This document shows, in pieces, positions 1 to 30,316 of a DNA stretch of 30,759 bases (position 1 is its first letter; each line of letters opens with the position of its first letter). Below the pieces are notes generated by a model. It made no database searches. It had not been told where the DNA came from and was given only the letters and a program-made list of their open reading frames with translations. Position numbers and translations under genes: made by a program. The stretch lies in UHGV virus genome UHGV-0286058. One strand, 5' to 3'. This stretch comes from a virus.

Positions 1-285
1 GTGATAATTCGGGTGGATGTATTCTGCGTGTTCTTTTAAAAACTTTTCAAGTTCAAATCGGGAAAGATTTTTACTAATTAAAACATCCTCGACAACTATT
101 TTTTCAAATCCGCTTGTTTGTGCAGCAATTGCAAATATATCGCGGAGTGTCTGTGATTTCCCACTGTTATTAGGTCCGACAATGATTATTTTATCATTCT
201 CACCAAGATGTATGGTTTTACCACATTTAAATATTATTTTCTTGAAATTAATTGTTGGTAGAGGGAGGGTGTTCGTATAATTCAT
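1..285 (-). CDS. P-loop NTPase, N-terminal 95 aa only (gene runs off the window start)
   Basis: Reverse-strand ATG at 285-283, 2 nt after the int stop; translation MNYTNTLPLPTINFKKIIFKCGKTIHLGENDKIIIVGPNNSGKSQTLRDI... contains Walker A GPNNSGKS. AT-rich compared with flanking phage genes. The plus-strand ORF 17-280 in the track is its antisense shadow. Confidence 0.55.
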   Translation of the reverse strand, partial: MNYTNTLPLPTINFKKIIFKCGKTIHLGENDKIIIVGPNNSGKSQTLRDIFAIAAQTSGFEKIVVEDVLISKNLSRFELEKFLKEHAEYIHPNYH

Positions 286-286
286 A

Positions 287-1294
287 TTATATCTCCTTTA
301 CATATAATGGATTCAAAGTTACAGCATCTTCCAAATGGTTAGGTGCAAAGTGTGAGTAACGCATTGTCATTTTTATATCGGTATGACCGAGTATGCGTTG
401 AAGAACCAGAATATTACCACCATTCATCATAAAGTGACTGGCGAAGGTATGACGCAAAACGTGGGTAAGTTGCCCTGCCGGTAGTTCGATACCTGTTCTT
501 TCCAAAGCAGACCGGAATGCGCCATAGCAATCACTAAACAAACGACCTTTTTTATCATCAGGCAGAGACTCGTAGATCTCTTTGCTGATTGGAACAGTGC
601 GGTTTTTTCTACCTTTCGTGTTGGTGTATGTGATTTTGTATTTTGCGAGCTGGTTTTTTTTCAGACTCTCGGCCTCAGACCACCGTGCGCCAGTGGCGAG
701 ACAGATTCTTACCACAGCTTCTAAATCAGGGTTGCCATGTCGTTTACACTCTCCGAGCAGTTGCGAAATTTGGTCGTGAGTTAGCCAGGCCATTTCCAAT
801 TCTTCTGTGCGGAATGGGCGCATATTTTTCAGTGGGTTTTCACCCTTCCATTCTCCGAGACGGTTTAGTTCATTGAACACAGCCCGGAAGTAGGCCAGCT
901 CAAGGTTAAGAGTGCGAGGCGACACCTCTTTCACTCTGTTTGAACGGGCATACTCACCTTTTAACCGTTTTTCTCGGTAGCGGGAAAACATCTGCGCATC
1001 GAAATCGCGTGCGAGTGGTTCTCCCATACACTCAAAAGCATGGTGTATGGCTAACTGGCGTTTCAAGCCGTCTTTCAGCGTAATACCATGAGCGCTATAC
1101 CATGAATCAACCAGCTCTTTTAACGTGCGCCTGTCTTCCCTTTCTTCCTGCCATGGGTTTTGAACGGTGTACTGTTCAAACGCCAGAGCCTCGCCTTTAG
1201 TTGCGAATTTCTTTCTGATACGTTTGCCTTTTGCACCATTTGGGTAGATCTCACAAATCCAGCCGCCAGCCGGATTTTTACGGACAGTCATCAA
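287..1294 (-). CDS. int: tyrosine integrase (P2/186 type)
   Basis: 335 aa; C-terminal HVLRHTFAS ... LGHTDIKMTMRYSHF matches the tyrosine recombinase R..HxxR..Y catalytic region; position next to cI as in P2/186. Confidence 0.85.
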   Translation of the reverse strand: MMTVRKNPAGGWICEIYPNGAKGKRIRKKFATKGEALAFEQYTVQNPWQEEREDRRTLKELVDSWYSAHGITLKDGLKRQLAIHHAFECMGEPLARDFDAQMFSRYREKRLKGEYARSNRVKEVSPRTLNLELAYFRAVFNELNRLGEWKGENPLKNMRPFRTEELEMAWLTHDQISQLLGECKRHGNPDLEAVVRICLATGARWSEAESLKKNQLAKYKITYTNTKGRKNRTVPISKEIYESLPDDKKGRLFSDCYGAFRSALERTGIELPAGQLTHVLRHTFASHFMMNGGNILVLQRILGHTDIKMTMRYSHFAPNHLEDAVTLNPLYVKEI

Positions 1295-1971
1295 TTAACC
1301 TCGCTGTATACACCCACTACACGGCCAATCGTTTTTATCTCATCTATCCCGCACTCAAACGGTACTTTGCCGCCCGCAACGTGTAACTTTTTGCCGGGTA
1401 GGAGCGTCAATTCTCTGATGCTGGTAGCCCCCTCAATATCAACCAACCAAAGGCCATCAGAAAGTGAGGCATCTTGTTCTATGAAGTGCAGCTTTCCATC
1501 AGCGCGAACAGCAATACCTTTTGACATTTGCTTGCTAAAAAAACTGGCATCAATACTCAATGGTGAATTTTCTTCGAGTTTTCCATCACTCAGAGTGAAT
1601 GAGTCTATCGTTTTCGGAGCCGTTGGAGACGGTTTGCCATCATATTGAGAGCCTTGCCCCGTAAGAAGCCATAGCAGGCTTGCTCCGGTTTCTAGTGCGC
1701 ACTGTACGGCGAAATCATAAGAAACAGTGCCTCGCGTGTAGCGGTTTTGTAGGGAACTGGCGGCAATATTGAAGTGCCGGGCTAGCTGGATTTTTTGAGT
1801 AAAACCATATACTTGACAAATTCTATCCAGTAACTCGTCGTTATTCACCTGAGCATCAAGTATCAAAATATATTCCTTTGGGTATTTACTAATACTCGAT
1901 TGGGTATTAGTATCATTGCTAATTCGGGCAATCAGTGGCATAAGTTGGCAAACAGAGACCATTGATTGCAA
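1291..1971 (-). CDS. cI: CI-type immunity repressor (186 CI-like, HTH N-terminus)
   Basis: Divergent from apl/cII, directly upstream of int; helix-turn-helix-like segment QKIQLARHFNIAASSLQNRYTRG. Track start at 1971 is TTG; true start may be ATG at 1962 or 1941. Confidence 0.6.
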   Translation of the reverse strand: MQSMVSVCQLMPLIARISNDTNTQSSISKYPKEYILILDAQVNNDELLDRICQVYGFTQKIQLARHFNIAASSLQNRYTRGTVSYDFAVQCALETGASLLWLLTGQGSQYDGKPSPTAPKTIDSFTLSDGKLEENSPLSIDASFFSKQMSKGIAVRADGKLHFIEQDASLSDGLWLVDIEGATSIRELTLLPGKKLHVAGGKVPFECGIDEIKTIGRVVGVYSEVN

Positions 1972-1998
1972 ACATTGTCAAAATGGGAATCATGCAAC

Positions 1999-2262
1999 AT
2001 GGCTTCTGAAATCGCAATCATCAAAGTGCCTGCACCTATCGTTACTCTGCAGCAATTCGCAGAGCTTGAGGGTGTTTCTGAACGTACCGCTTACCGTTGG
2101 ACGACCGGCGACAATCCTTGCGTACCAATCGAACCTCGCACTATCCGTAAAGGCTGCAAGAAAGCCGGTGGCCCGATTCGTATTTATTACGCACGCTGGA
2201 AAGAAGAGCAGTTGCGTAAGGCGTTGGGGCATTCCCGTTTTCAACTCGTCATCGGCGCTTAA
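1999..2262 (+). CDS. apl: Apl/Cox-type excisionase and switch regulator
   Basis: 87 aa from ATG 1999 (MASEIAIIKV...), first gene of the rightward operon opposite cI, same position and size as 186 Apl. Confidence 0.55.
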   Translation: MASEIAIIKVPAPIVTLQQFAELEGVSERTAYRWTTGDNPCVPIEPRTIRKGCKKAGGPIRIYYARWKEEQLRKALGHSRFQLVIGA

Positions 2263-2292
2263 TTCACTTTATGTGAATTGTAAGGATGCAGC

Positions 2293-2802
2293 ATGTTTGA
2301 TTTTCAGATTTCCAAACATCCCCACTATGACGAAGCGTGCCGGGCTTTTGCGCAGCGTCACAACATGGCGAAGCTGGCCGAGCGCGCGAGTATGAATGTT
2401 CAGACGTTACGCAACAAACTCAATCCGGAACAGCCTCACCAGTTTACGCCGCCTGAATTGTGGCTGTTGACTGACCTGACCGAAGACTCGACCCTCGTTG
2501 ATGGTTTTCTGGCGCAGATTCATTGCCTACCATGCGTGCCGGTTAATGAGCTGGCTAAAGAAAAATTGCAGTCTTACGTTATGCGCGCAATGCGTGAACT
2601 CGGCGAGCTGGCGAGCGGTGCGGTATCTGATGAGCGTCTGACCACTGCCCGTAAGCACAACATGATTGAAAGCGTTAACTCTGGCATCCGCATGTTGTCA
2701 TTGTCGGCTCTGGCGCTGCATGCGCGTCTGCAGACTAATCCCGCTATGTCGAGTGTGGTCAATACCATGAGCGGTATTGGCGCATCGTTTGGTCTGATTT
2801 GA
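2293..2802 (+). CDS. cII: CII-like lysogeny establishment regulator
   Basis: 169 aa, AAGGA RBS, second gene of the rightward early operon; size and position as 186 CII. Confidence 0.5.
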   Translation: MFDFQISKHPHYDEACRAFAQRHNMAKLAERASMNVQTLRNKLNPEQPHQFTPPELWLLTDLTEDSTLVDGFLAQIHCLPCVPVNELAKEKLQSYVMRAMRELGELASGAVSDERLTTARKHNMIESVNSGIRMLSLSALALHARLQTNPAMSSVVNTMSGIGASFGLI

Positions 2803-2809
2803 GGTGCGT

Positions 2810-3037
2810 ATGCTGAAAGGTGAACCGTCATTCGCGTCTCTGCTTGTTAAGCAAAGCCCTGGCATGAACTACGGACACGGCTGGATCGCAGGTAAGGACG
2901 GCAAGCGCTGGCATCCGAGTCGCTCACAGTCCGAATTATTAAAAGGGCTGAAAACAAAGTCGCCGAAATCGTCAGGTTTTTTAATTGTTCGTATTGTCCA
3001 CTTTGTTATTAAAGGAGTGAAACATGTCACGCGATGA
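2810..3037 (+). CDS. small early protein, function unknown (position of 186 fil/dhr-type genes)
   Basis: ORF in track (GTG 2804, ATG 2810), 1-nt gap after cII, lysine-rich. Confidence 0.35.
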   Translation: MLKGEPSFASLLVKQSPGMNYGHGWIAGKDGKRWHPSRSQSELLKGLKTKSPKSSGFLIVRIVHFVIKGVKHVTR

Positions 3038-3224
3038 ATTAAGAATTGTTTTAGGTGCCATGATTCCAAATATGGAGGAAGGTTTTGAAATTAAAACCCG
3101 CGACGGCGCAATACTTCGCGTTGACCCTGAGTGGGAGTGCTGCAAAGAATTTAAGGATGGATTAAAAGCCGAAATCATCAAGCAGTTAAAAAGCAAACCT
3201 GCTGTTGTATTTGGATACAGTTAA
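3024..3224 (+). CDS. small early protein, function unknown
   Basis: 66 aa ORF with AAAGGAG RBS 7 nt upstream of ATG 3024. Confidence 0.4.
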   Translation: MSRDELRIVLGAMIPNMEEGFEIKTRDGAILRVDPEWECCKEFKDGLKAEIIKQLKSKPAVVFGYS

Positions 3225-3290
3225 TTAATTAAACGTAATTACTTGGCGTAAACCCGCCGGGCTTCTTATTGCCAAAAATCAGGAGGATAT

Positions 3291-3524
3291 ATGAGTCGAA
3301 CTATTTATTTATCAACGCCGAGTAGTGCTGGCGACCACGTGCTGGAGTCTTTGTTTAAAGAAGCCAAAAAAGAAGAGCGCAAAGACCGCGCTCTTGCCGT
3401 TTCAATCCGTCTCGAAGCTCTGGCAGTTCACATTACCAATTCAGATATGACCTGCAAAGAAGCGGCCGAACTTCTGCGCCGCGAAGTAGCCCGCTTTGAG
3501 AACGAATCACAGGAGCTGCACTAA
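3291..3524 (+). CDS. small early protein, function unknown
   Basis: 77 aa ORF with AGGAGG RBS; stop overlaps next start (TAATG). Confidence 0.4.
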   Translation: MSRTIYLSTPSSAGDHVLESLFKEAKKEERKDRALAVSIRLEALAVHITNSDMTCKEAAELLRREVARFENESQELH

Positions 3525-3745
3525 TGGCCGACACAATTGATTTAGCCCAACAGCGTGAGCAGGAAGACCGCGAGCGCTACATCAATAAAGCGCGCAGCCG
3601 TATCGCTGCACCTTCCCGTTTTTTCTGCGAAAAATGTGACGCACCAATCCCGGAAGCTCGCCGCATTGCTATTCCGGGCGTGGATTTGTGCGTGACCTGT
3701 CAGCAAATCGACGAGCTCAAATCTAAGCATTATCGGGGGGTATGA
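3524..3745 (+). CDS. TraR/DksA-family C4 zinc-finger protein
   Basis: 73 aa with CEKCDAPIPEARRIAIPGVDLCVTCQ, a CxxC-N17-CxxC pattern typical of phage TraR/DksA-like proteins; translationally coupled to upstream ORF. Confidence 0.55.
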   Translation: MADTIDLAQQREQEDRERYINKARSRIAAPSRFFCEKCDAPIPEARRIAIPGVDLCVTCQQIDELKSKHYRGV

Positions 3746-3746
3746 A

Positions 3747-5330
3747 TTGGCTGTTCAGTTCGCGTTTCCGTGGAATGCTCCACGGTCGGCAATAACCAGT
3801 CCATATCTTACCTACGACCAACAGTATCGCCGCGACCGTATGTTCGCGGCTTTGCTGCATGCGAGAAAGGTGCTTTCTCTTCAGCCTGAGTGCGTGCGTT
3901 TTGATGTTTATCGAACCGCTGCGGTGCTGGAGAAAAATCAGGGCAGTCAACGAGCCAATGCTTTTTTAATCAGCTTCTGCAAAAAGGCATTGCCGCGTCT
4001 TGAATTGGTCGCAAAAAAATACGAGTGCGTGGGTATTAACAGCAATGTATCTGCCGCTGTTTTCGATGGTCATTTTGATACCCAGCTTATGCAATATCTG
4101 GCGTCACGCATGGTCAATATGGTCGCCAGATTTAACCGCCTCCCGGATATGTCGCGCGCCGATATTGACCTGCTGGCCGCTGATATAGCTAATTTCATTC
4201 GTGCTGAACTGGCTGATATTGATGACACCGGATTTAGCGAACTCAAAACGCTGTACACCTGGTACATGCGCGCCGGTTTTATTTCCCTGCAATTCAACAT
4301 TACACCGCCGAAATGGGAGCGTGTGACTAAAAAATATTTTGGCGAGGATGAAATCGCACCGGCAGTAATGCGTATGTTTAATGAGGTTTGGTGGCGCGAT
4401 CGTTTACGTCGTATTGCGTCTGCGTGGCGCGAACACCTGCACATTGCCGTTGGCAGCGTCAGTAAGAGAAAACACGTCTATGCTAGTAAAAACTGCGTGA
4501 CTGACTGGCGCGAGCAAAAGCGCCGCACGCGCGAATTTCTCAAGGGGCTGGATCTCGAAGACGAAGACGGCAACCGCATTAGCCTGATTGAAAAATACGA
4601 CGGCTCGGTAGCTAATCCAGCAATACGCCGCTGCGAGCTGATGACCCGCATCCGTGGGTTTGAAAACATCTGCAATGAGCTCGGTTATGTCGGTGAGTTT
4701 TACACCCTTACTGCACCGTCTAAATATCACGCCACCACCAAAGCGGGCTACCGTAATAGAAAATGGAACGGTGCCAGCCCGTCGGACACGCAGAGCTATC
4801 TAACCGGCCTATGGGCACGCATACGCGCTAAGCTACACCGGGAAGAAATCCGCATTTTCGGCATCCGTGTTGCCGAGCCTCATCACGACGGAACGCCTCA
4901 CTGGCACATGCTTATGTTCATGTTGCCGGAAGATGTCGAGCGCGTGCGCCTCATCATTCGCGATTATGCGTGGGAGGAAGACCGACACGAGCTGAGAAGT
5001 GATAAGGCCAAAAAGGCACGTTTTCATGCCGAGGCCATTGACCCGGAAAAGGGCAGCGCTACCGGCTATGTTGCTAAATACATTTCCAAAAATATCGACG
5101 GCTATGCTCTCGATGGTGAAACCGATGACGAAAGTGGTGAGTTCCTAAAAGAGACAGCCCCCGCTGTTTCAGCATGGGCGGCGCGCTGGCACATCCGACA
5201 ATTTCAGTTTATCGGCGGTGCGCCTGTGACGGTCTACCGTGAGTTGCGTCGTCTCGCTGATACCGAGACCGCGCACGGTTTGAGTATTGAGTTTGCCGCC
5301 GTTCATGACGCCGCTGATGCCGGTGATTGA
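3747..5330 (+). CDS. A: replication initiator A, catalytic part (HUH rolling-circle endonuclease); ends at an in-frame TGA
   Basis: 527 aa; HUH-like motif PHWHMLMFM and paired tyrosines GYVAKYISK (YxxxY) as in P2 A protein. Track start is TTG. Same reading frame continues into 5379-5963. Confidence 0.75.
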   Translation: MAVQFAFPWNAPRSAITSPYLTYDQQYRRDRMFAALLHARKVLSLQPECVRFDVYRTAAVLEKNQGSQRANAFLISFCKKALPRLELVAKKYECVGINSNVSAAVFDGHFDTQLMQYLASRMVNMVARFNRLPDMSRADIDLLAADIANFIRAELADIDDTGFSELKTLYTWYMRAGFISLQFNITPPKWERVTKKYFGEDEIAPAVMRMFNEVWWRDRLRRIASAWREHLHIAVGSVSKRKHVYASKNCVTDWREQKRRTREFLKGLDLEDEDGNRISLIEKYDGSVANPAIRRCELMTRIRGFENICNELGYVGEFYTLTAPSKYHATTKAGYRNRKWNGASPSDTQSYLTGLWARIRAKLHREEIRIFGIRVAEPHHDGTPHWHMLMFMLPEDVERVRLIIRDYAWEEDRHELRSDKAKKARFHAEAIDPEKGSATGYVAKYISKNIDGYALDGETDDESGEFLKETAPAVSAWAARWHIRQFQFIGGAPVTVYRELRRLADTETAHGLSIEFAAVHDAADAGD

Positions 5331-5378
5331 GCTGGATATGTCAATGCGCAGGGTGGTCCGTTTGTCCGTCGTGATGAT

Positions 5379-5963
5379 TTGCAGGTGCGCACGCTGTATG
5401 AACCGCGCACTGAGTTTAACCAGTATGGTGAGGAAACCGTCTGCATCCGTGGCGTGTACGATTCCTCTGTAGGTTCTGGCACCCCGATTTTAACCAGGCT
5501 AACGCAGTGGAAAATTGTGCCGAAGCGTGCCGTTGATTTGGCCGTTGACGTTAAGGGCGCTCCTGCGCCCTCTCGGAGTTCTGTCAATAACTGTACGAGA
5601 AGCGAAAGCGATCCACCGATACTGGATTTAACAAAACCTCTGAGTCGGCGTGAGAGACGAGAGCTGACCAACCGACTCAGGAAGCAAAAGCCAGCAATAC
5701 GGCGAAAATTCATCCACGGAACGGATGAGCAAAATGCAGCTATAGCGAAAACCATCGACGAGATACATCTGACAACCGGCATCGCAATTAGCCGGGGCGA
5801 AGCCCTGCATCTGATGGCGGGTGGTAAAAGTTGTTATGGCGGTAAGTGGCTACGCGGAACAGCCAAAGGCGAAATATTTTCTGCAGCGCCATCACACCAA
5901 GTTAAAGCTAAGAAAATCCTCAATCGTGTGGCGGCTTTAGCTGAAATGACAACCAAAATGTAA
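5379..5963 (+). CDS. A: replication initiator A, C-terminal part (same frame as 3747-5330, separated only by one TGA)
   Basis: 5379 minus 3747 is divisible by 3; no other stop between 5331 and 5378; combined length 738 codons fits P2/186 A proteins (about 700-760 aa). Confidence 0.55.
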   Translation: MQVRTLYEPRTEFNQYGEETVCIRGVYDSSVGSGTPILTRLTQWKIVPKRAVDLAVDVKGAPAPSRSSVNNCTRSESDPPILDLTKPLSRRERRELTNRLRKQKPAIRRKFIHGTDEQNAAIAKTIDEIHLTTGIAISRGEALHLMAGGKSCYGGKWLRGTAKGEIFSAAPSHQVKAKKILNRVAALAEMTTKM

Positions 5964-6043
5964 CCCTTAATATTTATCCATATCATGTACATACAGCGTA
6001 TTTAATCGTGATTTTTTTCTTCACATCTTTTGTTAATACGTGC

Positions 6044-6063
6044 TACTGTATGTTTATACAGTA
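6044..6063. promoter_or_regulatory. LexA (SOS) operator overlapping the tum promoter
   Basis: TACTGTATGTTTATACAGTA is a perfect CTGT-N8-ACAG palindrome; TTGTTA (-35-like) lies just upstream and TATACA (-10-like) overlaps the box. Confidence 0.75.
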
Positions 6064-6108
6064 TCTCGTAGTGGAGGTTGTGTGGATAGAGAGTTAAGCG
6101 AGCACGTT

Positions 6109-6522
6109 ATGATTGAGCGGGTCGAAATGATTGCGCGTCTGACGGCTGAAGGCGCTTGTAAGGAAAGAGACCGCGAAATCGCATTGAATTTAATTGCGGA
6201 GATAGCAAGAAGGAACTTAATGAAAAACAACTCCTTCTCGGTTGTTTTCTCCCCAACGCCTATTGAAGAACGATTAAAAAGAGGGGGCGAGGTGAGGGTA
6301 AATATCATATTAGATAAAGACCAAAAAATAGGCCAGCCGGTGATTGATGCTTTTCAATGCGAATTGGCTAGGCGAGTACAGTCTATTTTCCCGTCAACGC
6401 GCGTTACAGTTAAAAAGGGATCCATGACAGGTGTGGAGCTGATGGGATTCGATAAAGATTCAGATCGAGAGGCGCTTGATAGTATCCTTCAGGAAGTGTG
6501 GGAGGATGAGAGCTGGCGTTAG
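6109..6522 (+). CDS. tum: Tum-like SOS-inducible antirepressor with DinI-like C-terminal domain
   Basis: C-terminal 80 aa (VRVNIILDKDQ...LDSILQEVWEDESWR) resembles DinI-family proteins; LexA box immediately upstream. Track ORF starts at GTG 6040 inside the operator; in-frame GTG 6082 would give 146 aa, ATG 6109 gives 137 aa. Confidence 0.6.
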   Translation: MIERVEMIARLTAEGACKERDREIALNLIAEIARRNLMKNNSFSVVFSPTPIEERLKRGGEVRVNIILDKDQKIGQPVIDAFQCELARRVQSIFPSTRVTVKKGSMTGVELMGFDKDSDREALDSILQEVWEDESWR

Positions 6523-6605
6523 TTCCTGAAAAATGTACAAACCGTGCCCCCATGTTTGATAGCATGGGGTTGTTTTTTTATGGGGATTACAAACAAAGGA
6601 AAATC

Positions 6606-7337
6606 ATGGATACCGTTATAGCATTTTTATCTCTGGTGCTCTTTCTTGCTTTTATCGTGGGTTTAATCAAGCCGTCGCTGGTTCGAATGCCGAACCGTAA
6701 GCGCTCCAGTGCGGTTTATCTCGGTGGCTGTCTGGCGCTGGGTGTTATTGGCTCAATCTTATGGCCGACTGAAAAAAGTCAGCCTGTGGCAAAAAACGAT
6801 GTACCGGCGGTTAAAGCGGAACCGGCTACGCCAACGTTTGAGTACGCAGATAAAACACTCAAAGAATATCGCAACGAGCCAAAAGAAACCCGGCACGATA
6901 TCGTTAAAGGATATGTTGGCTTCAAAGGTGTACCGGCCAGCTCTGCTGATGCCTTTTATGCCTGTATGAGTGAGTACACTTTTACTAAAGATGATGCGTT
7001 AAAGCTCGGTGATGTGTTGGGGTGGTGTTTTAACGACTTCGAGAAGGATCCACAATCTCTGAATAATAAAATCAACCTTGACGCATTTCAGGGTAATTTC
7101 AGCGGTTGGGATGGCTCTTATCGCCCGTTAGAGATGCTGATAAAAGCCAGCATGAATGATGATTCCTCTTATAAACATGTTTCAACGGTCTACCATCTGA
7201 TTTTGAATAAAGACCCGCATGCCATTGTAAAAACGACGTTTCGCGGCACTAATGCTTATGGTGGCGTGGTCAAACAGACCGTAGCTGCGCGCGTCAACGT
7301 GCGAACGGGTGAGGTCGATTCGATACTCGACAATTAA
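6606..7337 (+). CDS. membrane-anchored accessory protein, function unknown
   Basis: ATG 6606 with AAGGA RBS; N-terminal hydrophobic helices (VIAFLSLVLFLAFIVGLI, AVYLGGCLALGVIGSILW) followed by about 170 aa soluble domain with no motif I recognise. Lies between tum and cos, the position of old/tin in P2. Confidence 0.5.
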   Translation: MDTVIAFLSLVLFLAFIVGLIKPSLVRMPNRKRSSAVYLGGCLALGVIGSILWPTEKSQPVAKNDVPAVKAEPATPTFEYADKTLKEYRNEPKETRHDIVKGYVGFKGVPASSADAFYACMSEYTFTKDDALKLGDVLGWCFNDFEKDPQSLNNKINLDAFQGNFSGWDGSYRPLEMLIKASMNDDSSYKHVSTVYHLILNKDPHAIVKTTFRGTNAYGGVVKQTVAARVNVRTGEVDSILDN

Positions 7338-7446
7338 ATAATATAGTGACAAACGCCGCCGGTGCTGAAACTCGTTTTCCGTGCTGGCGGGGTTGAACAA
7401 CGAGCCTGCGAGGCGTTAGATACATATAATCGAAAGAGGATGGATT

Positions 7447-7995
7447 ATGTCAAAGTTTACAGAGTTGTGCAGCGCATATACTGAGTTTCAGAACAAACTT
7501 TCTGATACTCGACTTGCTGCGTTTAACTTTTCTAGTCTCGTGATTAAAAATTATTTAGATTATCTTGGTATTGATAATGTAGAAACATATAAATTAATCC
7601 CGTTAGATAAAGATGAAAAACTAAATACGAAATATACACCCGCTGGAGCTACTCATTTAGGGGATGATGGGTTCTGGCATTTAGGATTTGTATTGACTGT
7701 CTATAAAGACTCTAATACTTACCCGCAGTCGCCTTTCCAAATAGATTTCAAATTCAGAAAAAATGATGATGGCTCATATACATTTGGTGTTGATAGCATA
7801 GATTTTGCAACAAAAATTACCTCTCTCAGTAACTCAAATGAATTCACACCTGTATTTGATAAAATTCAAGAGTGCATTCTAGGGCACTTTAAAGAATTTG
7901 AAGACTTTCTTGTTGGTAAGCATGACAAGATGTCATCCATTGGATTCATTCAAGAAGGTATTTTTGCGAAAATTAACAGCGAAAAAAATGCGTAA
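7447..7995 (+). CDS. AT-rich accessory protein, function unknown
   Basis: 182 aa, AGAGGA RBS, visibly lower GC than neighbours, followed by hairpin plus T-run; no transmembrane segment, no recognisable motif. Confidence 0.55.
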   Translation: MSKFTELCSAYTEFQNKLSDTRLAAFNFSSLVIKNYLDYLGIDNVETYKLIPLDKDEKLNTKYTPAGATHLGDDGFWHLGFVLTVYKDSNTYPQSPFQIDFKFRKNDDGSYTFGVDSIDFATKITSLSNSNEFTPVFDKIQECILGHFKEFEDFLVGKHDKMSSIGFIQEGIFAKINSEKNA

Positions 7996-8013
7996 AGAGT
8001 ACACAAGTAAATG

Positions 8014-8038
8014 ATGCATGCCTTAGGTGCATTTTTTT
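8014..8038 (+). terminator. putative intrinsic terminator after the accessory gene
   Basis: ATGCATGCC-TTA-GGTGCAT stem-loop followed by TTTTTTT. Confidence 0.4.
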
Positions 8039-8138
8039 GCATGCCCCAGCCGTGCCAGTTCTGAGCGTATACTGTCAGAGCTGGCGCGGATCCAGAGTAG
8101 TCATGCAACTGCATTAAAACCGACACATAAAGCGGGCA

Positions 8139-8157
8139 GGCGTGGCGGGGAAAGCAT
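8139..8157. other. cos cohesive-end site (186/P2 type)
   Basis: GGCGTGGCGGGGAAAGCAT, recalled as the 19-nt cohesive end of 186 (P2 differs at two positions); located just outside portal gene Q as in P2. Confidence 0.5.
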
Positions 8158-8333
8158 TGCGCGCCAGCGGTGGTGCGTAATAATAAAAATTATCCTCTGA
8201 GCGCGTCGTGATGGCGCTGTCGTGGATGCTGTAGGCTCGTTGGTGGTCTGGTGTAGCCGTGCGCGTGTGGTGCGTCTGAGGCGTGATGATGGCGGGGTAT
8301 GAAAAAGCCGCCATGCTGGCGGCTTGAGGGGGA

Positions 8334-9380
8334 TTATTCCGGGTTGTCGAGGGTGTACTCTTTGAATCTGATGACCTCCATGCCGAGCCAGTCGTTTACC
8401 TCCCTGAACCTGTCCTGCAGGGGTGACAGCTCGTTACGAACGAATACCTTTGCCACCTTCTCAACGTCACCGAGTGAACCGATATTCTCGGGCTTGCCGC
8501 CCATAAGCTGGAACGGCACGCGGTGCGCGTCCATCAGGTCGGCAGCGCTGGCTTTCTTAATGTTGAAAAAGTCATCCTTTGTGGCGACCTCGCTCAGTGG
8601 CACGATTTTGATGCCGTCCGGTTTTCCGCCGGGTGCGTAGAAAAACAGGTTCTTAAAGTTGCCGAGCCCTTTCGAGTTGCGCATCGCCTCGCGCAGCGAT
8701 TCGACGTCGGTCGCGCTCTGCGCCGGGTCGGTCACATACATGATGTAACCAGCATGCGCTCCGTTCTGGTAATACTTGCGGCGGAACAGCGTCGCAGCTT
8801 CATTCAGCCAGGCGGAATTAAGCGCGCTGAGATATTCAGGCAGGCCGTAAATTTCCTGATTAATGTCGGGCTCAAGCAGGTGAAACACGGTATCAGGCGC
8901 GAACTCATGCGGCCGCGTGAAGTTTTCCACAAACCAGAAAATCGAGTCGTCGACCCCGCGCCGGGTGTATTTGGCCGGTGAGGCCAGTAGCTTGATTAAC
9001 TGGCCGGTGACGCTGTTGCGCTGCTCAAGAAAGGCATTGCCGAAAACCAGATAGTCGAGTGCAAAACGGCTGAAATCCTGACGGGATAGCAACGGGTGCG
9101 GAATGTAGGTGCTTGCGAGTACGTTGCGCTTAACATAAATCGGTGAGCTGTGATGCACGGCAGAGCGCAGGCTCTTTGCCAGCCCGGAGAAGCTTACTGG
9201 CGGCTCGTACCATTTGCCGTTACTGATGCACTCGACGTAATCCAGAATATCGCGCTTATCGAGTACCGGCACCGGCTCGCCGAAGGTGAACGCTGTCGTT
9301 TTTGGCGGTGCGCTGGCGGTAAGTTGTTGTGGCTTGCTGGCCTTCTGCGCAGCGGCTTTACGGGATTTTTGCTTACCCAT
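8334..9380 (-). CDS. Q: portal protein
   Basis: 348 aa (P2 Q about 344 aa), leftward, immediately followed by terminase P; P2 synteny. Confidence 0.85.
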   Translation of the reverse strand: MGKQKSRKAAAQKASKPQQLTASAPPKTTAFTFGEPVPVLDKRDILDYVECISNGKWYEPPVSFSGLAKSLRSAVHHSSPIYVKRNVLASTYIPHPLLSRQDFSRFALDYLVFGNAFLEQRNSVTGQLIKLLASPAKYTRRGVDDSIFWFVENFTRPHEFAPDTVFHLLEPDINQEIYGLPEYLSALNSAWLNEAATLFRRKYYQNGAHAGYIMYVTDPAQSATDVESLREAMRNSKGLGNFKNLFFYAPGGKPDGIKIVPLSEVATKDDFFNIKKASAADLMDAHRVPFQLMGGKPENIGSLGDVEKVAKVFVRNELSPLQDRFREVNDWLGMEVIRFKEYTLDNPE

Positions 9381-9381
9381 T

Positions 9382-11151
9382 TTAGTTGAACTCCAGAATA
9401 GATTTAGGCTGCATGCCGCTACCGGCGGAAAGCGGTTCGTTTAACAGGGCGTGCATAGTCGCCCATGCGATATCGGCGTGACTGGCTTCCTCGGTGCGGC
9501 TGGCCTCGTACGTGGCGCTGCGCCCGCTGCTGGTCATAGTTTTGCGGATGGACATAAACGACTGCGTGACGTCGGTCGCACCGGCGTCATACTCCAGACA
9601 GCCACGGCGAATGGTGTCTTTTGCCTTGAGCACCATCGCGGTTTTCATCTCAGGCGTGTAACGGATGCCGCGCGCCGCCGGGTAGAATGAGCGCACCAAC
9701 TGGAACACGCCGAGACCGAGGCCGGTTGCGTCAATGCCGATGTATTCGACGTTGTATTTCTCGGTCAGTTTGCGGATGCCCTCTGCCTGCGCAGCAAAGT
9801 CCATGCCTTTCCACTGGTGACGCTCCAGCATGCGGAACTTGCCACCCGAGACCACCGGCGGTGCGAGTACGACGCACCCGGCACTGTCGCCGGTGTGTGA
9901 CGGGTCGTAGCCAACCCAGACAGGACGCGAGCCGAACGGATGGTCGGCGAACGGGGCAAAGTCCTCCCATTCTTCCATCACGTCGACCATGCAGCGCTGC
10001 AGCTCCTCGAACGGGAATACCGACGCTTTATCGTCGACAAACTCGCACATAAACAGGTTTTTAAAATCCTCATCACTGTTTTCGCGTTTGAGCTGGTCGA
10101 GGTCGAACAGGGTGCAGCCACCGGCAAGGGCGTCCTCAATGGTGACAATCTGCCGCCACTGGCCATCGTCGCAGAGCTGGCCACCGACGAGCGCGTTGTG
10201 ACTGATGTCGATTTCGATGCGGTCGGCAATACGGCTGCGCCCCTTGTTGAACAGCTCGCCAGACCAGAAGGGGTAAGCGCCGTGCGCCAGCGTGGAAGGT
10301 GTAGAAAAGTAGGTTGAGCGCAGGTGCTTCTGAGAGGCCATGCCCGAGGCGACTTTGCGCAGCTTCTGAAAATTCGGGATCCAGAATATTTCATCGACAT
10401 ACAGGTCGCCGTTATGGCTCTGCGCGGTGTTGGAATTGGTACCGAGAAAAATCAGCTTTGCGCCGTTGTTGCCGATGACAATCGGGTCGCCTGTCAGGTC
10501 GACGTCGACCAGTCGCGCAAACTGGATGATGTATTCGCGGAACACGTAAGCCTGCGTTTTACTGGCCGACAGAAAGATTTGGTTATGACCGGTCTTGAGC
10601 GCGCGCAGCAGTGCCTCGCGGGAAAAATAGAACGTCGCGCCAATCTGTCGGGATTTGAGAATGTCGCGAATACGGTGTTCCAGCCCTGCACGGTACCACT
10701 GCAACTGGTACTCGAAAGACTGGTCGAAAAATAATTCATCCAGTTTCTCGATAGCCTCATCGCTGAAAAAATTCTTTTTCGGCTTCTTACGCTCGCCCTT
10801 GTTGCGATTGGCAACATTGGGGTTAAGGTCGACCTCGTTGCCGGTCTGGCTGTAGCGGTTAACGCGCGCCAGTCGCTCAATTTGTCGCCCGAGCAGGTCA
10901 ATCTCTTTGAAGTCGCCGCCTGACTTTTGCGGCTTGGCGATGAGCTGAATCAGGCGCGCCTCAAGGCTGCTTTCAACGCGGGAAATCGGTGCGATACCGT
11001 CCCAGCAGTCGCGCTGCTTCCAGCTCTGCACGGTCGGGCGCTTGACCTGCAGCATTTCGGCAATCTGTGGCACGGAAAAACCCTGCCAGTAAAGCAGCGA
11101 TGCCTGCCGTCGCGGGTCATGCAACAAGGTTGTATCGGTGGAAATGGTCAT
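9382..11151 (-). CDS. P: terminase large (ATPase) subunit
   Basis: 589 aa (P2 P about 590 aa), 1-nt gap to Q, divergent from O as in the P2 late region. Confidence 0.85.
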   Translation of the reverse strand: MTISTDTTLLHDPRRQASLLYWQGFSVPQIAEMLQVKRPTVQSWKQRDCWDGIAPISRVESSLEARLIQLIAKPQKSGGDFKEIDLLGRQIERLARVNRYSQTGNEVDLNPNVANRNKGERKKPKKNFFSDEAIEKLDELFFDQSFEYQLQWYRAGLEHRIRDILKSRQIGATFYFSREALLRALKTGHNQIFLSASKTQAYVFREYIIQFARLVDVDLTGDPIVIGNNGAKLIFLGTNSNTAQSHNGDLYVDEIFWIPNFQKLRKVASGMASQKHLRSTYFSTPSTLAHGAYPFWSGELFNKGRSRIADRIEIDISHNALVGGQLCDDGQWRQIVTIEDALAGGCTLFDLDQLKRENSDEDFKNLFMCEFVDDKASVFPFEELQRCMVDVMEEWEDFAPFADHPFGSRPVWVGYDPSHTGDSAGCVVLAPPVVSGGKFRMLERHQWKGMDFAAQAEGIRKLTEKYNVEYIGIDATGLGLGVFQLVRSFYPAARGIRYTPEMKTAMVLKAKDTIRRGCLEYDAGATDVTQSFMSIRKTMTSSGRSATYEASRTEEASHADIAWATMHALLNEPLSAGSGMQPKSILEFN

Positions 11152-17110: not shown

Positions 17111-18154
17111 ATGGGTGATGCATATTTATTCGATATCATAAAGGACATGCTGCCAGTTTTATCAGGCCTACTAGGAGTGTTGGGTATTCTCAATGTGTTT
17201 AAAACTTCGAATAATCGCCTTAGCTTTTGGGGATGGCTGGCTGTTTTTGTAATTGTGATCTCCACGATTGCAACACTGCTATTAGCGAAAAAGGAAAAAA
17301 ATGATAATGAGCGGGAAAAGATACAACTCCAAAACAAAATAGATAACATATTAAGAGACGTAGCCAAGGCTCGTGAGCCAATTGGGGAGGTTTCCATAAC
17401 CTATTGGTCGCTGCTTCCTGATTCGAATCAACTGGTTCGAAAATACAAAGACTATCTTAATGAAAAAGCAAGAGGTGAGGTCGAAAATTTTTCATTCCAT
17501 AACCTAACGAAGACTAATAAAGATTATTTCGGGACTACAATCGATTTGGATGGGAAGCTCGCCGTTTTTAGCATTGATGAAAAAAATAAGTATTGGCCCT
17601 CGGGTTCTTTCTCTGAAATCGGTCTTTTGGCCTCAAATTTTTCAATAATGCTCTGTATCAATTCCAAACACACTAATGCTAAGGATGTGCGTTTTATCAT
17701 AGGGGCAAGGAACAACTTAGATTGGTGTGCTCTTGCCTTGCTGCCAAGAACAAGTGATATCTTTTATGACGTCAAAAAAGATAAAATTGGATTGGCAACA
17801 ACCATTACATATGACAAAAAATGGGTGTATTCCAATGGCGTTATTTCCTCGGTTAGAGATTTCTTCGGTTCGGATGTCTTTTTTGTTCTTCCCTCTACAG
17901 ATTCTCGATTTTTGAATGACTATCTAAAGTCCATAGGAGCACCTCAGACGCTTATAGAGTCAAATAAAATAAAGTCCGAGATCATTGCTGGTATGAGCAC
18001 AGAGTCAGTGAGCGTCAAAATGGGGGATGGCCAACGTTTTAATATCTCAGGAGAACATCTAAAAAAATATAACTCGAAAGATGGCAGAACTTTTTTCTAT
18101 ATCAAAATGCCTTTGTCAGAAAAAGAAGTTAGTGAGCTCGAGACAAAAAATTAG
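17111..18154 (+). CDS. AT-rich membrane-anchored accessory protein, function unknown (moron between S and V)
   Basis: 347 aa; two N-terminal hydrophobic helices (LPVLSGLLGVLGILNVF, WGWLAVFVIVISTIATLLLA) then about 280 aa Lys/Asn-rich domain; GC visibly far below flanking tail genes; sits where P2 carries orf30. Confidence 0.55.
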   Translation: MGDAYLFDIIKDMLPVLSGLLGVLGILNVFKTSNNRLSFWGWLAVFVIVISTIATLLLAKKEKNDNEREKIQLQNKIDNILRDVAKAREPIGEVSITYWSLLPDSNQLVRKYKDYLNEKARGEVENFSFHNLTKTNKDYFGTTIDLDGKLAVFSIDEKNKYWPSGSFSEIGLLASNFSIMLCINSKHTNAKDVRFIIGARNNLDWCALALLPRTSDIFYDVKKDKIGLATTITYDKKWVYSNGVISSVRDFFGSDVFFVLPSTDSRFLNDYLKSIGAPQTLIESNKIKSEIIAGMSTESVSVKMGDGQRFNISGEHLKKYNSKDGRTFFYIKMPLSEKEVSELETKN

Positions 18155-27693: not shown

Positions 27694-28859
27694 TAACGGG
27701 GATGGCAATTGACGCCGGTGCCAGCCTTGCACCGGCTTTTATGCTGACGCTGAACAGTCAGGACATTACCAGCAACTTCAGCGACCGGCTGATTTCTCTC
27801 ACCATGACGGACAATAGGGGCTTTGAAGCTGACCAGCTCGACATTGAGCTCGATGACACCGATGGGAAAGTCGAGTTACCCCTGCGCGGGGCAGTGCTGA
27901 CGTTGTGGCTTGGCTGGCAGGGTTCGGCGCTGCTGAATAAGGGGGATTTTACGGTCGATGAGATTGAGCACCGGGGGGCTCCTGATACCCTGACCATCCG
28001 GGCGCGCAGCGCGGACTTTCGCGGCACGCTAAATTCCAGGCGTGAAGAGTCATGGCACGACACCACCATCGGCGAACTGGTCAGTACCATCGCAAAGCGC
28101 AACAAACTGACGGCCAACATTGCGGAATCGCTGAAAAAAATCCCGGTACCGCATATCGACCAGTCGCAGGAATCCGACGCGGTATTTTTGAGTCGACTGG
28201 CTGACCGCAACGGGGCAACGGTATCGGTGAAGGCAGGGAAACTGTTGTTTCTGAAAGCCGGTAGTGCGATGACGGCCAGCGGCAAACCCGTCCCGCAAAT
28301 GACGCTGACCCGCAGTGATGGTGACCGTCATCAGTTTGCCATTGCCGACCGTGGGGCTTATACCGGCGTCACTGCTAAATGGTTGCACACCAAAGACCCG
28401 AAGCCACAAAAGCAGAAAGTAACGCTGAAACGCAAGCCAAAAGAGAAGCACCTGCGCGCACTGGAACACCCAAAAGCAAAGCCGGTCAGCAAAAAGACAA
28501 AGGTCAAAAAAGAACAGGAAGCACGTGAGGGTGAGTACATGGCCGGTGAAGCCGATAACGTGCTGGCGCTTACGACGGTCTACGCATCAAAGGCACAGGC
28601 GATGCGCGCCGCTCAGGCTAAGTGGGATAAGCTGCAACGAGGTGTTGCCGAGTTTTCAATTACGCTGGCGCTCGGTCGCGCTGATTTATTTCCCGAGACG
28701 CCAGTGCGCGTATCAGGCTTTAAGCGCGTCATAGACGAGCAATCTTGGTTACTCAGTAAGGTAACTCACAATCTGAATAATAATGGCTTCACGACGGGCT
28801 TAGAGCTTGAGGTTAAACTCTCCGATGTGGAGTACAACGCCGAATCGGATGATGAATAA
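27690..28859 (+). CDS. D: tail protein D (late control gene D)
   Basis: 389 aa (P2 D about 387 aa); overlaps the U stop. Confidence 0.8.
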   Translation: MITGMAIDAGASLAPAFMLTLNSQDITSNFSDRLISLTMTDNRGFEADQLDIELDDTDGKVELPLRGAVLTLWLGWQGSALLNKGDFTVDEIEHRGAPDTLTIRARSADFRGTLNSRREESWHDTTIGELVSTIAKRNKLTANIAESLKKIPVPHIDQSQESDAVFLSRLADRNGATVSVKAGKLLFLKAGSAMTASGKPVPQMTLTRSDGDRHQFAIADRGAYTGVTAKWLHTKDPKPQKQKVTLKRKPKEKHLRALEHPKAKPVSKKTKVKKEQEAREGEYMAGEADNVLALTTVYASKAQAMRAAQAKWDKLQRGVAEFSITLALGRADLFPETPVRVSGFKRVIDEQSWLLSKVTHNLNNNGFTTGLELEVKLSDVEYNAESDDE

Positions 28860-29168: not shown

Positions 29169-29816
29169 CTACCTCAAAAGGCCTTCAGTCAATTCTTCGC
29201 CCGTACAGAATTGATATAGTGCACGAAGGTTCTCTTCAATCCACGTTATCTCTTTTAATGCATAACCTGAGAAACCGATCATAATATTTTCTATTTCAAT
29301 GAGTTGTGCAGAGTCTTTGTTATCTACAATCGAATCATAAAAGTGCTTTAACTCAACTATAGCTTTAAAGGCTGCATCCATCTTTTCATAAAAAACTGAA
29401 TCAGTTTTCGATACATCGTATAAAAATCTTGAGAAATTTTCCGTAGATGGTTCTGGAAGGAGGCCACCTGATTGTTTTCTTCCACTTTTTAATACTATGT
29501 AACGTGTTTTTCCTGCAGTGGTTTTGAACACTTGAAGATCTAATATACGTTCATGTTGTGGTTTTTTTTCATATGGCTCAAATGTTTCGCAAAGCTTTTT
29601 GATCTGCCCGTTGATATGCCAAGCAACCTGGCACTCCCGAGCAAATATTTGCTTTAAGGCGCGAATCTCATTTTTTCTCGCTTTAGATTTACGACGACAA
29701 TCTAACAATTCCCTAATAATGAAGAGAAAGATTGCAACAAAAGCAGATGCTGGAATGAGCGTTCCACTCGTCAAAAGGCTAACCCAATCACATTGTGTTG
29801 CAGTTTCTACCGCCAT
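29169..29816 (-). CDS. AT-rich accessory protein with N-terminal membrane anchor, function unknown
   Basis: 215 aa from ATG 29816 (track start 29858 would overlap the tRNA terminator); helix LIPASAFVAIFLFII then soluble domain; convergent with ogr; low GC. Confidence 0.5.
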   Translation of the reverse strand: MAVETATQCDWVSLLTSGTLIPASAFVAIFLFIIRELLDCRRKSKARKNEIRALKQIFARECQVAWHINGQIKKLCETFEPYEKKPQHERILDLQVFKTTAGKTRYIVLKSGRKQSGGLLPEPSTENFSRFLYDVSKTDSVFYEKMDAAFKAIVELKHFYDSIVDNKDSAQLIEIENIMIGFSGYALKEITWIEENLRALYQFCTGEELTEGLLR

Positions 29817-29844
29817 TTTATCGCCACCCCGAAATTGATAAACA

Positions 29845-29875
29845 AAAAGGCCACCCAAGTGAGTGGCCTAACTGT
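29845..29875 (-). terminator. intrinsic terminator downstream of the tRNA
   Basis: Minus strand reads AGGCCACTCACTTGGGTGGCC followed by TTTTTGTTT, directly after the tRNA 3' end. Confidence 0.4.
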
Positions 29876-29885
29876 CGGTATTTAC

Positions 29886-29961
29886 TGCTTAAATTTGGTG
29901 GCCCCTGCTGGACTTGAACCAGCGACCAAGCGATTATGAGTCGCCTGCTCTAACCACTGAG
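29886..29961 (-). tRNA. ileX: tRNA with CAU anticodon, identical in my recollection to E. coli tRNA-Ile2 (ileX/ileY); not an elongator tRNA-Met sequence
   Basis: 76 nt GGCCCCTTAGCTCAGTGGTTAGAGCAGGCGACTCATAATCGCTTGGTCGCTGGTTCAAGTCCAGCAGGGGCCACCA on the minus strand; anticodon loop CUCAUAA; divergent mug-like gene upstream matches the E. coli mug-ileX neighbourhood. Confidence 0.8.
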
Positions 29962-30095
29962 CTAAGGGGCCGTGGCGGTGAATTATAAAGTAACTCCCCT
30001 CAGCAATCCAGCCATTCACACCTGCCTGCTGTTTTTATAAACAACGCATAATCAATCCTTTATACTTATCTTAAGATGCATAGACAGGAGTAGAG

Positions 30096-30224
30096 ATGAT
30101 CAACGATATTCTGGCCCCTGGCCTGCGGGTGGTGTTCTGCGGTATTAATCCGGGCAAGTCATCGGCGCACACCGGTTTTCACTTTGCTCATCCGGGAAAT
30201 CGCTTCTGGAAGGTGATCCACTAA
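30096..30224 (+). pseudogene. mug: mug (G/U mismatch DNA glycosylase) 5' fragment, truncated after 42 codons
   Basis: [42 protein letters not shown] closely resembles the N-terminus of E. coli Mug (168 aa); stop TAA is the first 3 nt of the tRNA-derived repeat. Confidence 0.6.
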
Positions 30225-30262
30225 TCGCTTGGTCGCTGGTTCAAGTCCAGCAGGGGCCACCA
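30222..30262 (+). repeat. 41-nt copy of the tRNA 3' half (anticodon loop to CCA), inverted relative to the intact tRNA; att-core-like repeat
   Basis: TAATCGCTTGGTCGCTGGTTCAAGTCCAGCAGGGGCCACCA is identical to tRNA positions 36-76; the sequence after it is homologous but diverged from that after the intact tRNA. Confidence 0.6.
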
Positions 30263-30287
30263 AATTTTAGCTTTAGAATCATCCAGT

Positions 30288-30316
30288 TAAGCCACTCGAT
30301 TGAGTGGCTTTTTTGT
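30288..30316 (+). terminator. intrinsic terminator following the partial tRNA copy
   Basis: AAGCCACTC-GATT-GAGTGGCTT followed by TTTTGT; a diverged paralogue of the terminator at 29845-29875. Confidence 0.4.

What the first reader, a model, noticed from the sequence alone, without database searches (positions are those of the whole stretch)
3747..5963. Replication initiator gene A split by a single in-frame TGA
The two ORFs 3747-5330 and 5379-5963 are in the same frame and separated only by TGA at 5328-5330, with no other stop; together they give 738 codons, matching P2/186 A proteins. The HUH and YxxxY catalytic motifs are all in the upstream part. This could be a real nonsense mutation making the prophage replication-defective, a sequencing error, or opal read-through. 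A prophage that keeps intact morphogenesis and accessory genes but has lost replication would be a domesticated, host-retained element.
Basis: seen in the sequence. Interest (0 to 1): 0.45.

Follow-up and report, generated by a model that had tools for sequence, protein, structure and literature searches.

The report
Fresh stop codon in prophage replicase
A single G-to-A change has turned an invariant tryptophan codon of a 186-like prophage's replication-initiator gene into a stop; it is a very recent change seen in one sample of an otherwise intact, common E. coli prophage, so it is ordinary early prophage decay and not a domesticated element.

Summary
Frame 3747-5963 is open for 738 codons except for TGA at 5328-5330. 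The codon is TGG (Trp) in six reference phages and in 68 of 68 intact homologues from other species.

An intact version of this exact allele exists. The 738-aa protein with Trp528 is on record as an E. coli replication endonuclease on 108 contigs, and a 707-aa call of it on 39 more. One metagenome contig matches the window over 10.5 kb except at position 5330.

The TGA allele appears only in the window and in two assemblies that probably come from one sample. Every other 186 homologue in the window is full length.

The stop lies inside the most conserved block of the protein. That block is downstream of the HUH and YxxxY motifs and 246 nt upstream of the origin. The 527-aa product is therefore probably inactive, apart from background UGA read-through by Trp-tRNA, which would restore the wild-type protein.

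Domestication is not supported. The lesion is not shared by any other sample and has no accompanying decay. Gene A is broken in about 13% of related prophages, a rate per codon close to that of terminase and integrase.

This is an ordinary, known phenomenon.

The parts
3747..5327 (+). 5' part of replication-initiator gene A (codons 1-527). It holds the Pfam Phage_GPA / HUH Rep domain (residues 139-453).
   Evidence: The TTG start at 3747 lies one base after the TGA stop of the upstream zinc-finger gene. The same start is used in the 738-aa E. coli protein P0026 and in phage BIS20.
3524..3745 (+). Upstream TraR/DksA-type zinc-finger gene. Its stop abuts the A start, which suggests translational coupling.
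   Evidence: PF01258. The 186 record notes that translation to the end of the upstream ORF is needed for A translation. Coupling in this window is inferred.
4899..4907 (+). HUH motif (H385-W-H387, within PHWHMLMF)
   Evidence: and read directly
5067..5081 (+). Two-tyrosine motif Y441-V-A-K-Y445
   Evidence: and read directly
5328..5330 (+). Premature opal codon TGA at codon 528. The ancestral state is TGG (Trp); the change is G to A at 5330.
5331..5963 (+). 3' remainder of gene A (codons 529-738 plus TAA). It stays in frame and has no further lesion.
   Evidence: It is identical to the intact allele.
5556..5600 (+). Presumed origin of rolling-circle replication (nick region) inside the 3' part of A. 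The 186 ori base maps to 5576.
   Evidence: 79 of 81 bases match the region around the 186 rep_origin at 28576, which the 186 record places by similarity to P2.

Best explanation
The window holds a 186-like (Eganvirus) prophage integrated at a tRNA-Ile2 (CAU) gene. A single G-to-A transition at 5330 has converted the invariant Trp528 codon of its rolling-circle initiator gene A (TGG) into TGA.

Translation therefore mostly ends after 527 residues. That product keeps the HUH/two-tyrosine nickase core but loses the second half of the most conserved block of the protein and the whole C-terminal third. It is probably unable to start phage DNA replication.

The only likely source of full-length protein is ordinary near-cognate decoding of UGA by Trp-tRNA(Trp). 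This would insert the wild-type residue, at roughly the per-cent level or below.

The mutation is very recent and is seen in one sample only. It represents the first hit of ordinary prophage decay, or a transient variant that the next lytic cycle would purge. It is neither a programmed recoding signal nor a sign of domestication.

Shown: the mutation, its ancestral state, its confinement to one sample, and the intactness of the remaining genes. Inferred: loss of function, the level of read-through, and the consequence for induction.
For: 1. TGA at 5328-5330 is the only interruption in the frame.
2. The codon is TGG in phages 186, EtG, Kp4852-2, Midge, PSP3 and BIS20. Trp is invariant in 69 of 69 aligned sequences, including 68 intact homologues down to about 50% identity, and in alignment A2.
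3. The exact Trp528 version of this protein is on record as 'replication endonuclease [Escherichia coli]' on 108 contigs, and its 707-aa call on 39 contigs.
4. Contig ERZ27318064 k141_65141 is identical to window 1-10522 except at 5330. GCA_017723835.1 also has G at 5330, as does the gut-metagenome contig OWOI01000087.
5. The TGA allele was found only in Logan SRR11412927 and in the ENA assembly of SAMN14445711, both 100% identical to the window. All four hits in the viral and metagenome scans carry G.
6. All other 186 homologues in the window are full length with no stop or frameshift.
7. Residues 454-610 form the most conserved stretch (88% and 79% mean identity to the window residue), so the stop falls inside a conserved block and not in a linker.
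8. The RNA after the stop folds less well than shuffled sequences (z = +2.47), so no SECIS or stimulatory hairpin is present.
9. UGA read-through in E. coli K-12 reporters is about 2% at 37 C. It is set by competition between Trp-tRNA(Trp) and RF2 (PMC10570021).
Against: The three TGA-bearing sequences (the window, L007 and L008) most likely derive from one sample, so they give no independent confirmation and no read-level support.

Loss of function is inferred from conservation only. No structure or domain assignment exists for residues 454-738. Pfam found nothing there, the PDB sequence and profile searches found nothing, and the AlphaFold model was too poor to use (mean pLDDT 43.7).

The catalytic core is retained, so residual nicking activity of the 527-aa product cannot be excluded.

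Read-through in this codon context (UGA-G) and in a wild E. coli was not measured.
Confidence: 0.8

Rival explanations
1. Sequencing or assembly error: the true base at 5330 is G and the gene is intact.
For: The window differs from an intact sister prophage by exactly this one base over 10.5 kb. All TGA-bearing sequences probably come from one sample.
Against: Three separately produced assemblies agree: the window, the Logan contig and the ENA scaffold. The site is not in a homopolymer. Consensus substitution errors are rare in short-read assemblies (general knowledge). The Logan contig runs unbroken across the site.
Confidence: 0.08
2. Leaky opal that leaves the phage viable: background UGA decoding by Trp-tRNA restores wild-type A. 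Because A works catalytically and in cis, per-cent levels would be enough for delayed or reduced replication. The prophage would then be attenuated but not dead.
For: UGA is decoded by Trp-tRNA(Trp) at about 2-4% in K-12 reporters (PMC10570021). The residue inserted would be the ancestral Trp. The origin and the rest of the gene are intact.
Against: The K-12 figures come from reporter constructs, and this codon context and host strain were not tested. No stimulatory structure follows the stop. No relative has a stop here, so the family does not tolerate or use one. The A dosage needed for replication is unknown.
Confidence: 0.15
3. Selected inactivation (domestication or 'grounding'): host lineages that knock out the cis-acting nickase are favoured, so the prophage is kept for its cargo and tail or defence genes.
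For: Two other independent lesions hit gene A in near-identical prophages. One is a +1 A in an A5 run at 5083 (SRR24828662 and GCA_032210145.1). The other is a 23-bp deletion at 5276-5298 (SAMEA5617750). All other genes are intact. The prophage carries an OLD-family nuclease gene next to int.
Against: Those lesioned copies were found through a cluster of truncated A proteins, so the sampling is biased. The intact allele is far more common, on 108 and 39 contigs. Each lesion is confined to one lineage. The TGA copy has no other difference from an intact copy over 10.5 kb. Across 78 species-representative genomes, A is disrupted in about 10, against 6 of 51 for terminase, 4 of 56 for integrase and 1 of 53 for portal. 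Per codon this is no excess for A. The SOS-inducible tum gene and the lysis genes remain, so loss of A would not obviously spare the host; that last point is inference.
Confidence: 0.06
4. Functional split gene: the 527-aa nickase and a re-initiated C-terminal fragment (from TTG 5379 or GTG 5385) assemble into an active initiator.
For: In-frame TTG and GTG codons lie 49-55 nt after the stop. A gene caller did call a 192-aa ORF from 5385.
Against: No Shine-Dalgarno-like sequence precedes these codons (read). No relative is organised as two genes. The split would remove invariant residues 528-545 from both fragments.
Confidence: 0.02

Closest known systems
Gene A of coliphage 186 and P2 (rolling-circle replication initiator, HUH two-tyrosine endonuclease, Pfam PF05840 Phage_GPA)
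   Same: It shares 88% DNA identity with 186 A over 99% of its length. It also shares the Pfam domain, the HUH and YxxxY motifs, the position at the end of the early operon just before the SOS-controlled tum gene, and the origin sequence inside its own 3' part. P2 gene A is described as cis-acting with ori in the same region (Liu, Saha and Haggard-Ljungquist 1993, title as cited in PMC5694545).
   Different: It is interrupted by TGA at codon 528. It also lacks the 186 orf81/83/84 genes upstream, so A follows the zinc-finger gene directly, as in phage BIS20.
Intact sister allele: E. coli 'replication endonuclease' P0026 (UniRef UPI000F9B2CC5), 738 aa
   Same: It is identical at every residue except position 528. 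Its DNA is identical at every base of the gene except 5330.
   Different: It has Trp528 (TGG) instead of a stop. It is seen on 108 contigs, against one sample for the TGA allele.
Gene-A pseudogenes in other P2/186-like prophages, for example in Erwinia tracheiphila, Pantoea agglomerans, Pantoea stewartii and Hafnia paralvei genomes
   Same: They show frameshifts, stops or truncations of A in otherwise recognisable prophages. About 10 of 78 species-representative genomes are affected.
   Different: Their lesions are at other positions, and several carry multiple hits or also have broken terminase or integrase genes. Here there is a single hit in a pristine background.
Natural opal read-through by Trp-tRNA(Trp) in E. 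coli
   Same: It involves the same stop codon and the same near-cognate tRNA. The residue inserted equals the ancestral one (PMC10570021).
   Different: Nothing here indicates a programmed event. The stop is not conserved and no downstream element is present.

Membership tests
P2/186 gpA rolling-circle initiator (PF05840) | Significant match to the Phage_GPA profile | tested here: met
   E = 3.2e-134, residues 139-453, covering the full profile. PF23343 (Rep ORF2/G2P) also matches at residues 346-449.
P2/186 gpA rolling-circle initiator (PF05840) | HUH metal-binding motif and two catalytic tyrosines spaced YxxxY | tested here: met
   H385-W-H387 and Y441-VAK-Y445
P2/186 gpA rolling-circle initiator (PF05840) | Origin (nick site) located inside the 3' part of its own gene | tested here: met
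   the sequence around the 186 rep_origin matches at 79 of 81 bases, and the ori base maps to 5576. The 186 site is itself assigned by similarity to P2.
P2/186 gpA rolling-circle initiator (PF05840) | Uninterrupted ORF of about 690-790 codons | tested here: not met
   TGA at codon 528. Relatives are 707-786 aa.
P2/186 gpA rolling-circle initiator (PF05840) | Site-specific nicking, covalent attachment and cis action | not testable with these tools
   This needs biochemistry or genetics.
Programmed stop-codon recoding (opal read-through or selenocysteine) | The stop codon is conserved at the same position in relatives | tested here: not met
   Trp (TGG) in all relatives, and 69 of 69 in the alignment
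Programmed stop-codon recoding (opal read-through or selenocysteine) | A stable RNA element (SECIS or stimulatory hairpin) directly downstream | tested here: not met
   minimum free energy -15 kcal/mol against a shuffle mean of -22.2, z = +2.47
Domesticated / grounded prophage | The inactivating lesion is inherited by descent in several strains or samples | tested here: not met
   TGA is found in one sample only, while the intact allele is on more than 100 contigs
Domesticated / grounded prophage | Further decay of lytic functions while cargo is retained | tested here: not met
   every other 186 homologue is full length; no other difference from an intact copy over 10.5 kb.
Domesticated / grounded prophage | Purifying selection on the retained genes after inactivation | not tested
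   There is no divergence since the mutation on which to measure it.

The most novel reading that the evidence does not exclude
The three independent knock-outs of gene A in one near-clonal E. coli prophage lineage are TGA at 5330, +1 A at 5083 and a 23-bp deletion at 5276-5298. They might reflect host-level selection against a leaky, cis-acting nickase whose origin sits in the chromosome. In that case replication-initiator loss would be a preferred first step of prophage grounding in P2/186-like phages.
Probability: 0.07. Interest if true: 0.45.

Novelty: already known. Interest (0 to 1): 0.12.

Why it matters
It matters little beyond annotation. The gene should be labelled a pseudogene (or a possible leaky opal mutant) of replication endonuclease A, and this prophage copy should be predicted to be replication-defective or strongly attenuated.

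It is a clean example of how young such lesions can be: one base in 10.5 kb separates it from an intact copy. That is a warning against reading 'domestication' into a single stop codon.

The only wider question it raises is whether initiator genes are hit preferentially in dormant P2-like prophages. The cross-species comparison made here does not suggest so.

Tried and rejected
1. A 47-nt pattern around the stop (either allele) found nothing in the species-representative genomes. The lineage is not represented there.

2. The structure of the full-length protein was predicted from 29 close homologues. The model was poor (mean pLDDT 43.7, pTM 0.33), so I ran no fold search and drew no domain conclusion for residues 454-738.

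3. Searches of the PDB with the protein sequence and with a C-terminal profile found no meaningful relative. The first gave one chance-level hit at E = 0.67 and the second gave none. Pfam finds nothing in the C-terminal 192 aa.

4. Selenocysteine or programmed read-through is rejected. The stop is not conserved and no hairpin follows it.

5. I could not fix the host from the right flank. Only the tRNA-Ile part matches complete E. coli genomes, at 84-93% identity. The E. coli assignment rests on the source names given to the intact protein.

6. The capsid comparator was translated in the wrong frame and is discarded.

7. Literature searches for primary papers on 186 or P2 gene A mutants found nothing usable in the held library. 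Only a reference title was recovered.

Full report
**Observation.** The frame that starts at TTG 3747 runs to TAA 5961-5963, which is 739 codons including the final stop. Its only interruption is TGA at 5328-5330, codon 528. A 210-codon open continuation would arise by chance about 4e-5 of the time ((61/64)^210, my arithmetic). Nucleotide homology to complete A genes also crosses the stop without a break: 37 phage records match at 88-91% identity over 97-100% of the 2217 nt.

**What the gene is.**
- The window is a 186-like (Eganvirus) prophage. It matches Erwinia phage EtG at 92.6% and coliphage 186 at 90.5% over more than 80% of the first 25 kb.
- With Trp restored, the protein matches Pfam Phage_GPA over residues 139-453 (E = 3e-134) and the Rep ORF2/G2P HUH domain over residues 346-449.
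- The HUH motif is H385-W-H387 and the two tyrosines are Y441 and Y445.
- The origin annotated in 186 (base 28576, placed by similarity to P2) maps to window 5576 within a stretch identical at 79 of 81 bases. This is 246 nt downstream of the stop, inside the 3' part of the gene.
- The A start follows the stop of the upstream zinc-finger gene by one base. The same arrangement is annotated in phage BIS20 and in the E. coli protein record.

**Ancestral state.**
- The codon is TGG in 186, EtG, Kp4852-2, Midge, PSP3 and BIS20.
- I collected 78 loci from species-representative genomes, at 51-96% protein identity. The 68 with an uninterrupted A gene all have Trp at this column, so 69 of 69 counting the restored window protein.
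- Residues 454-527 and 528-610 are the most conserved parts of the protein (88% and 79% mean identity to the window residue). The stop therefore sits inside a conserved block and not in a linker.
- Part of the conservation around codons 609-616 probably reflects the origin sequence itself. This is inference.

**How old and how widespread the stop is.**
- An exact look-up of the 527-aa product found one Logan contig from SRR11412927. The 496-aa call of the same product found one ENA scaffold from SAMN14445711. Both are 100% identical to the window over 9.5 and 15.3 kb.
- The run and sample numbers suggest that these two, and probably the window, come from one sample. I could not verify this.
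- The Trp528 version of the protein is on record as 'replication endonuclease [Escherichia coli]' on 108 contigs, and as a 707-aa call on 39 more.
- Contig ERZ27318064 k141_65141 matches window 1-10522 at every base except 5330.
- GCA_017723835.1 also carries G at 5330. So does a gut-metagenome contig that is 99.98% identical over 12 kb.
- Scans of the viral and metagenome collections, using a 40-nt pattern that allowed either allele, returned only G.
- The change is therefore a single, very recent G-to-A transition found in one sample only.

**Rest of the prophage.** Every other 186 protein with a homologue in the window aligns full length without a stop or frameshift. This includes portal, terminase, capsid, lysis, tail, B, int, cI, apl, cII, fil, dhr, tum and orf97. 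Gene A is the only broken gene.

**Likely consequence.**
- Most ribosomes will terminate at codon 528. The 527-residue protein keeps the nickase core but lacks half of the conserved 454-610 block and the C-terminal third.
- I infer that it cannot initiate replication. This rests on conservation only. No domain, solved structure or usable model covers the missing part.
- UGA is the leakiest stop in E. coli and is misread by Trp-tRNA(Trp). Reporter values in K-12 are about 2% at 37 C and 4% at 25 C (PMC10570021). Read-through here would recreate the wild-type protein.
- Nothing suggests that this is programmed. The RNA after the stop folds less well than shuffled controls (z = +2.47), and no relative has a stop at this position.
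- Whether per-cent levels of a cis-acting initiator would be enough for replication is unknown.

**Domestication.**
- Two other lesions of A turned up in near-identical prophages. One is a +1 A in the A5 run at 5079-5083, found in SRR24828662 and GCA_032210145.1; these two share a further SNP, so they count as one event. The other is a 23-bp deletion at 5276-5298 in SAMEA5617750.
- This looks suggestive, but I found those copies through a cluster of truncated A proteins, so the sample is biased. The intact allele greatly outnumbers them.
- As a base rate, about 10 of 78 species-representative loci have a disrupted or truncated A. The comparable figures are 6 of 51 for the large terminase, 4 of 56 for integrase and 1 of 53 for portal.
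- Per codon, A is hit about as often as terminase and integrase.
- The TGA copy has accumulated no other change relative to an intact copy over 10.5 kb. There is therefore no evidence of retention after inactivation.
- The data fit ordinary mutation accumulating in a dormant prophage.

**Comparison with known systems and verdict.** The gene is a member of the P2/186 gpA family by every sequence criterion tested except an uninterrupted ORF. Functionally it is best called a pseudogene, or a leaky opal mutant, of replication endonuclease A. The phenomenon is well known, and the interest is low.

Noticed in passing
L101 (U32222.1, phage 186) 28700-28990: The reference 186 record annotates A as 694 aa with a C-terminus (…IHSDNRHHNQPGRSPAPDGRW) unlike any relative. 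The family-consensus C-terminus can be read in the other two frames of the same DNA (…TTGITISRGEALHLMAGGKSCFNGRW…, then …RKILNRVADLAELATKM). The 186 record therefore seems to carry two frame changes near the 3' end of A. These are either old sequencing errors or real differences.
   Followed up: partly
window 5079-5083 and 5276-5298, seen in L009/L012 and L010: Sister prophages at 99.8-99.97% identity from other samples carry other lesions in A while keeping TGG at codon 528. One is a +1 A in an A5 run (SRR24828662 and GCA_032210145.1, where no A protein is on record). The other is a 23-bp deletion (SAMEA5617750).
   Followed up: yes
L008 130-1872 (-), just left of the window; window 1-285 is its 5' part: A 580-aa OLD-family nuclease gene (AAA_21 plus OLD-like TOPRIM; PADLOC Old, E = 4e-27) sits between the left att repeat and int. 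In relatives that share the same early region, this slot holds other cargo: ApeA/HEPN, pP_pnuc, AAA_15 with WYL, or an unannotated 487-aa gene. This suggests a variable defence-gene slot next to int.
   Followed up: partly
window 29842-29971 and 30222-30316: ARAGORN calls a tRNA-Met (CAT) at 29896-29971 (-). E. coli annotations call the matching gene tRNA-Ile, the attB type used by 186. A 55-bp att repeat (window 29886-29941) recurs at the left end of the prophage (L008 1-55). A second, inverted, partial copy of the tRNA (87% identical) lies at 30222-30316. The last 440 bp of the window match no complete E. coli genome.
   Followed up: partly
window 17111-18154 (+), 7447-7995 (+), 29169-29858 (-): Three ORFs (347, 182 and 229 aa) have no 186 counterpart and no Pfam or PADLOC match. 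The first is inserted between the tail-completion gene O and the baseplate gene V.
   Followed up: partly
L022 2112-3869 (GCA_017723835.1): In one copy with an intact A gene, an ISL3-family transposase gene and a DUF1706 gene are inserted between A and tum.
   Followed up: no
L038 and L045: Genome records labelled Chryseobacterium sp. 18061 and Vagococcus sp. WN89Y contain 186-like A genes 82-84% identical in protein to the window. These are probably enterobacterial contigs contaminating those assemblies.
   Followed up: no
window 6041-6060: A LexA-box-like sequence (CTGTatgtttatACAG) lies upstream of the tum homologue (6082-6522), matching the position of p95/LexA in 186. The SOS induction circuit therefore looks intact even though the replicase is broken.
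   Followed up: no
L076 about 9564 (Pantoea agglomerans NBRC 102470): Another A gene has a TGA only 9 codons upstream of the Trp528 position. The family motif AAHDAA is readable there in a different frame, so this looks like a local frame change and not the same mutation.
   Followed up: partly
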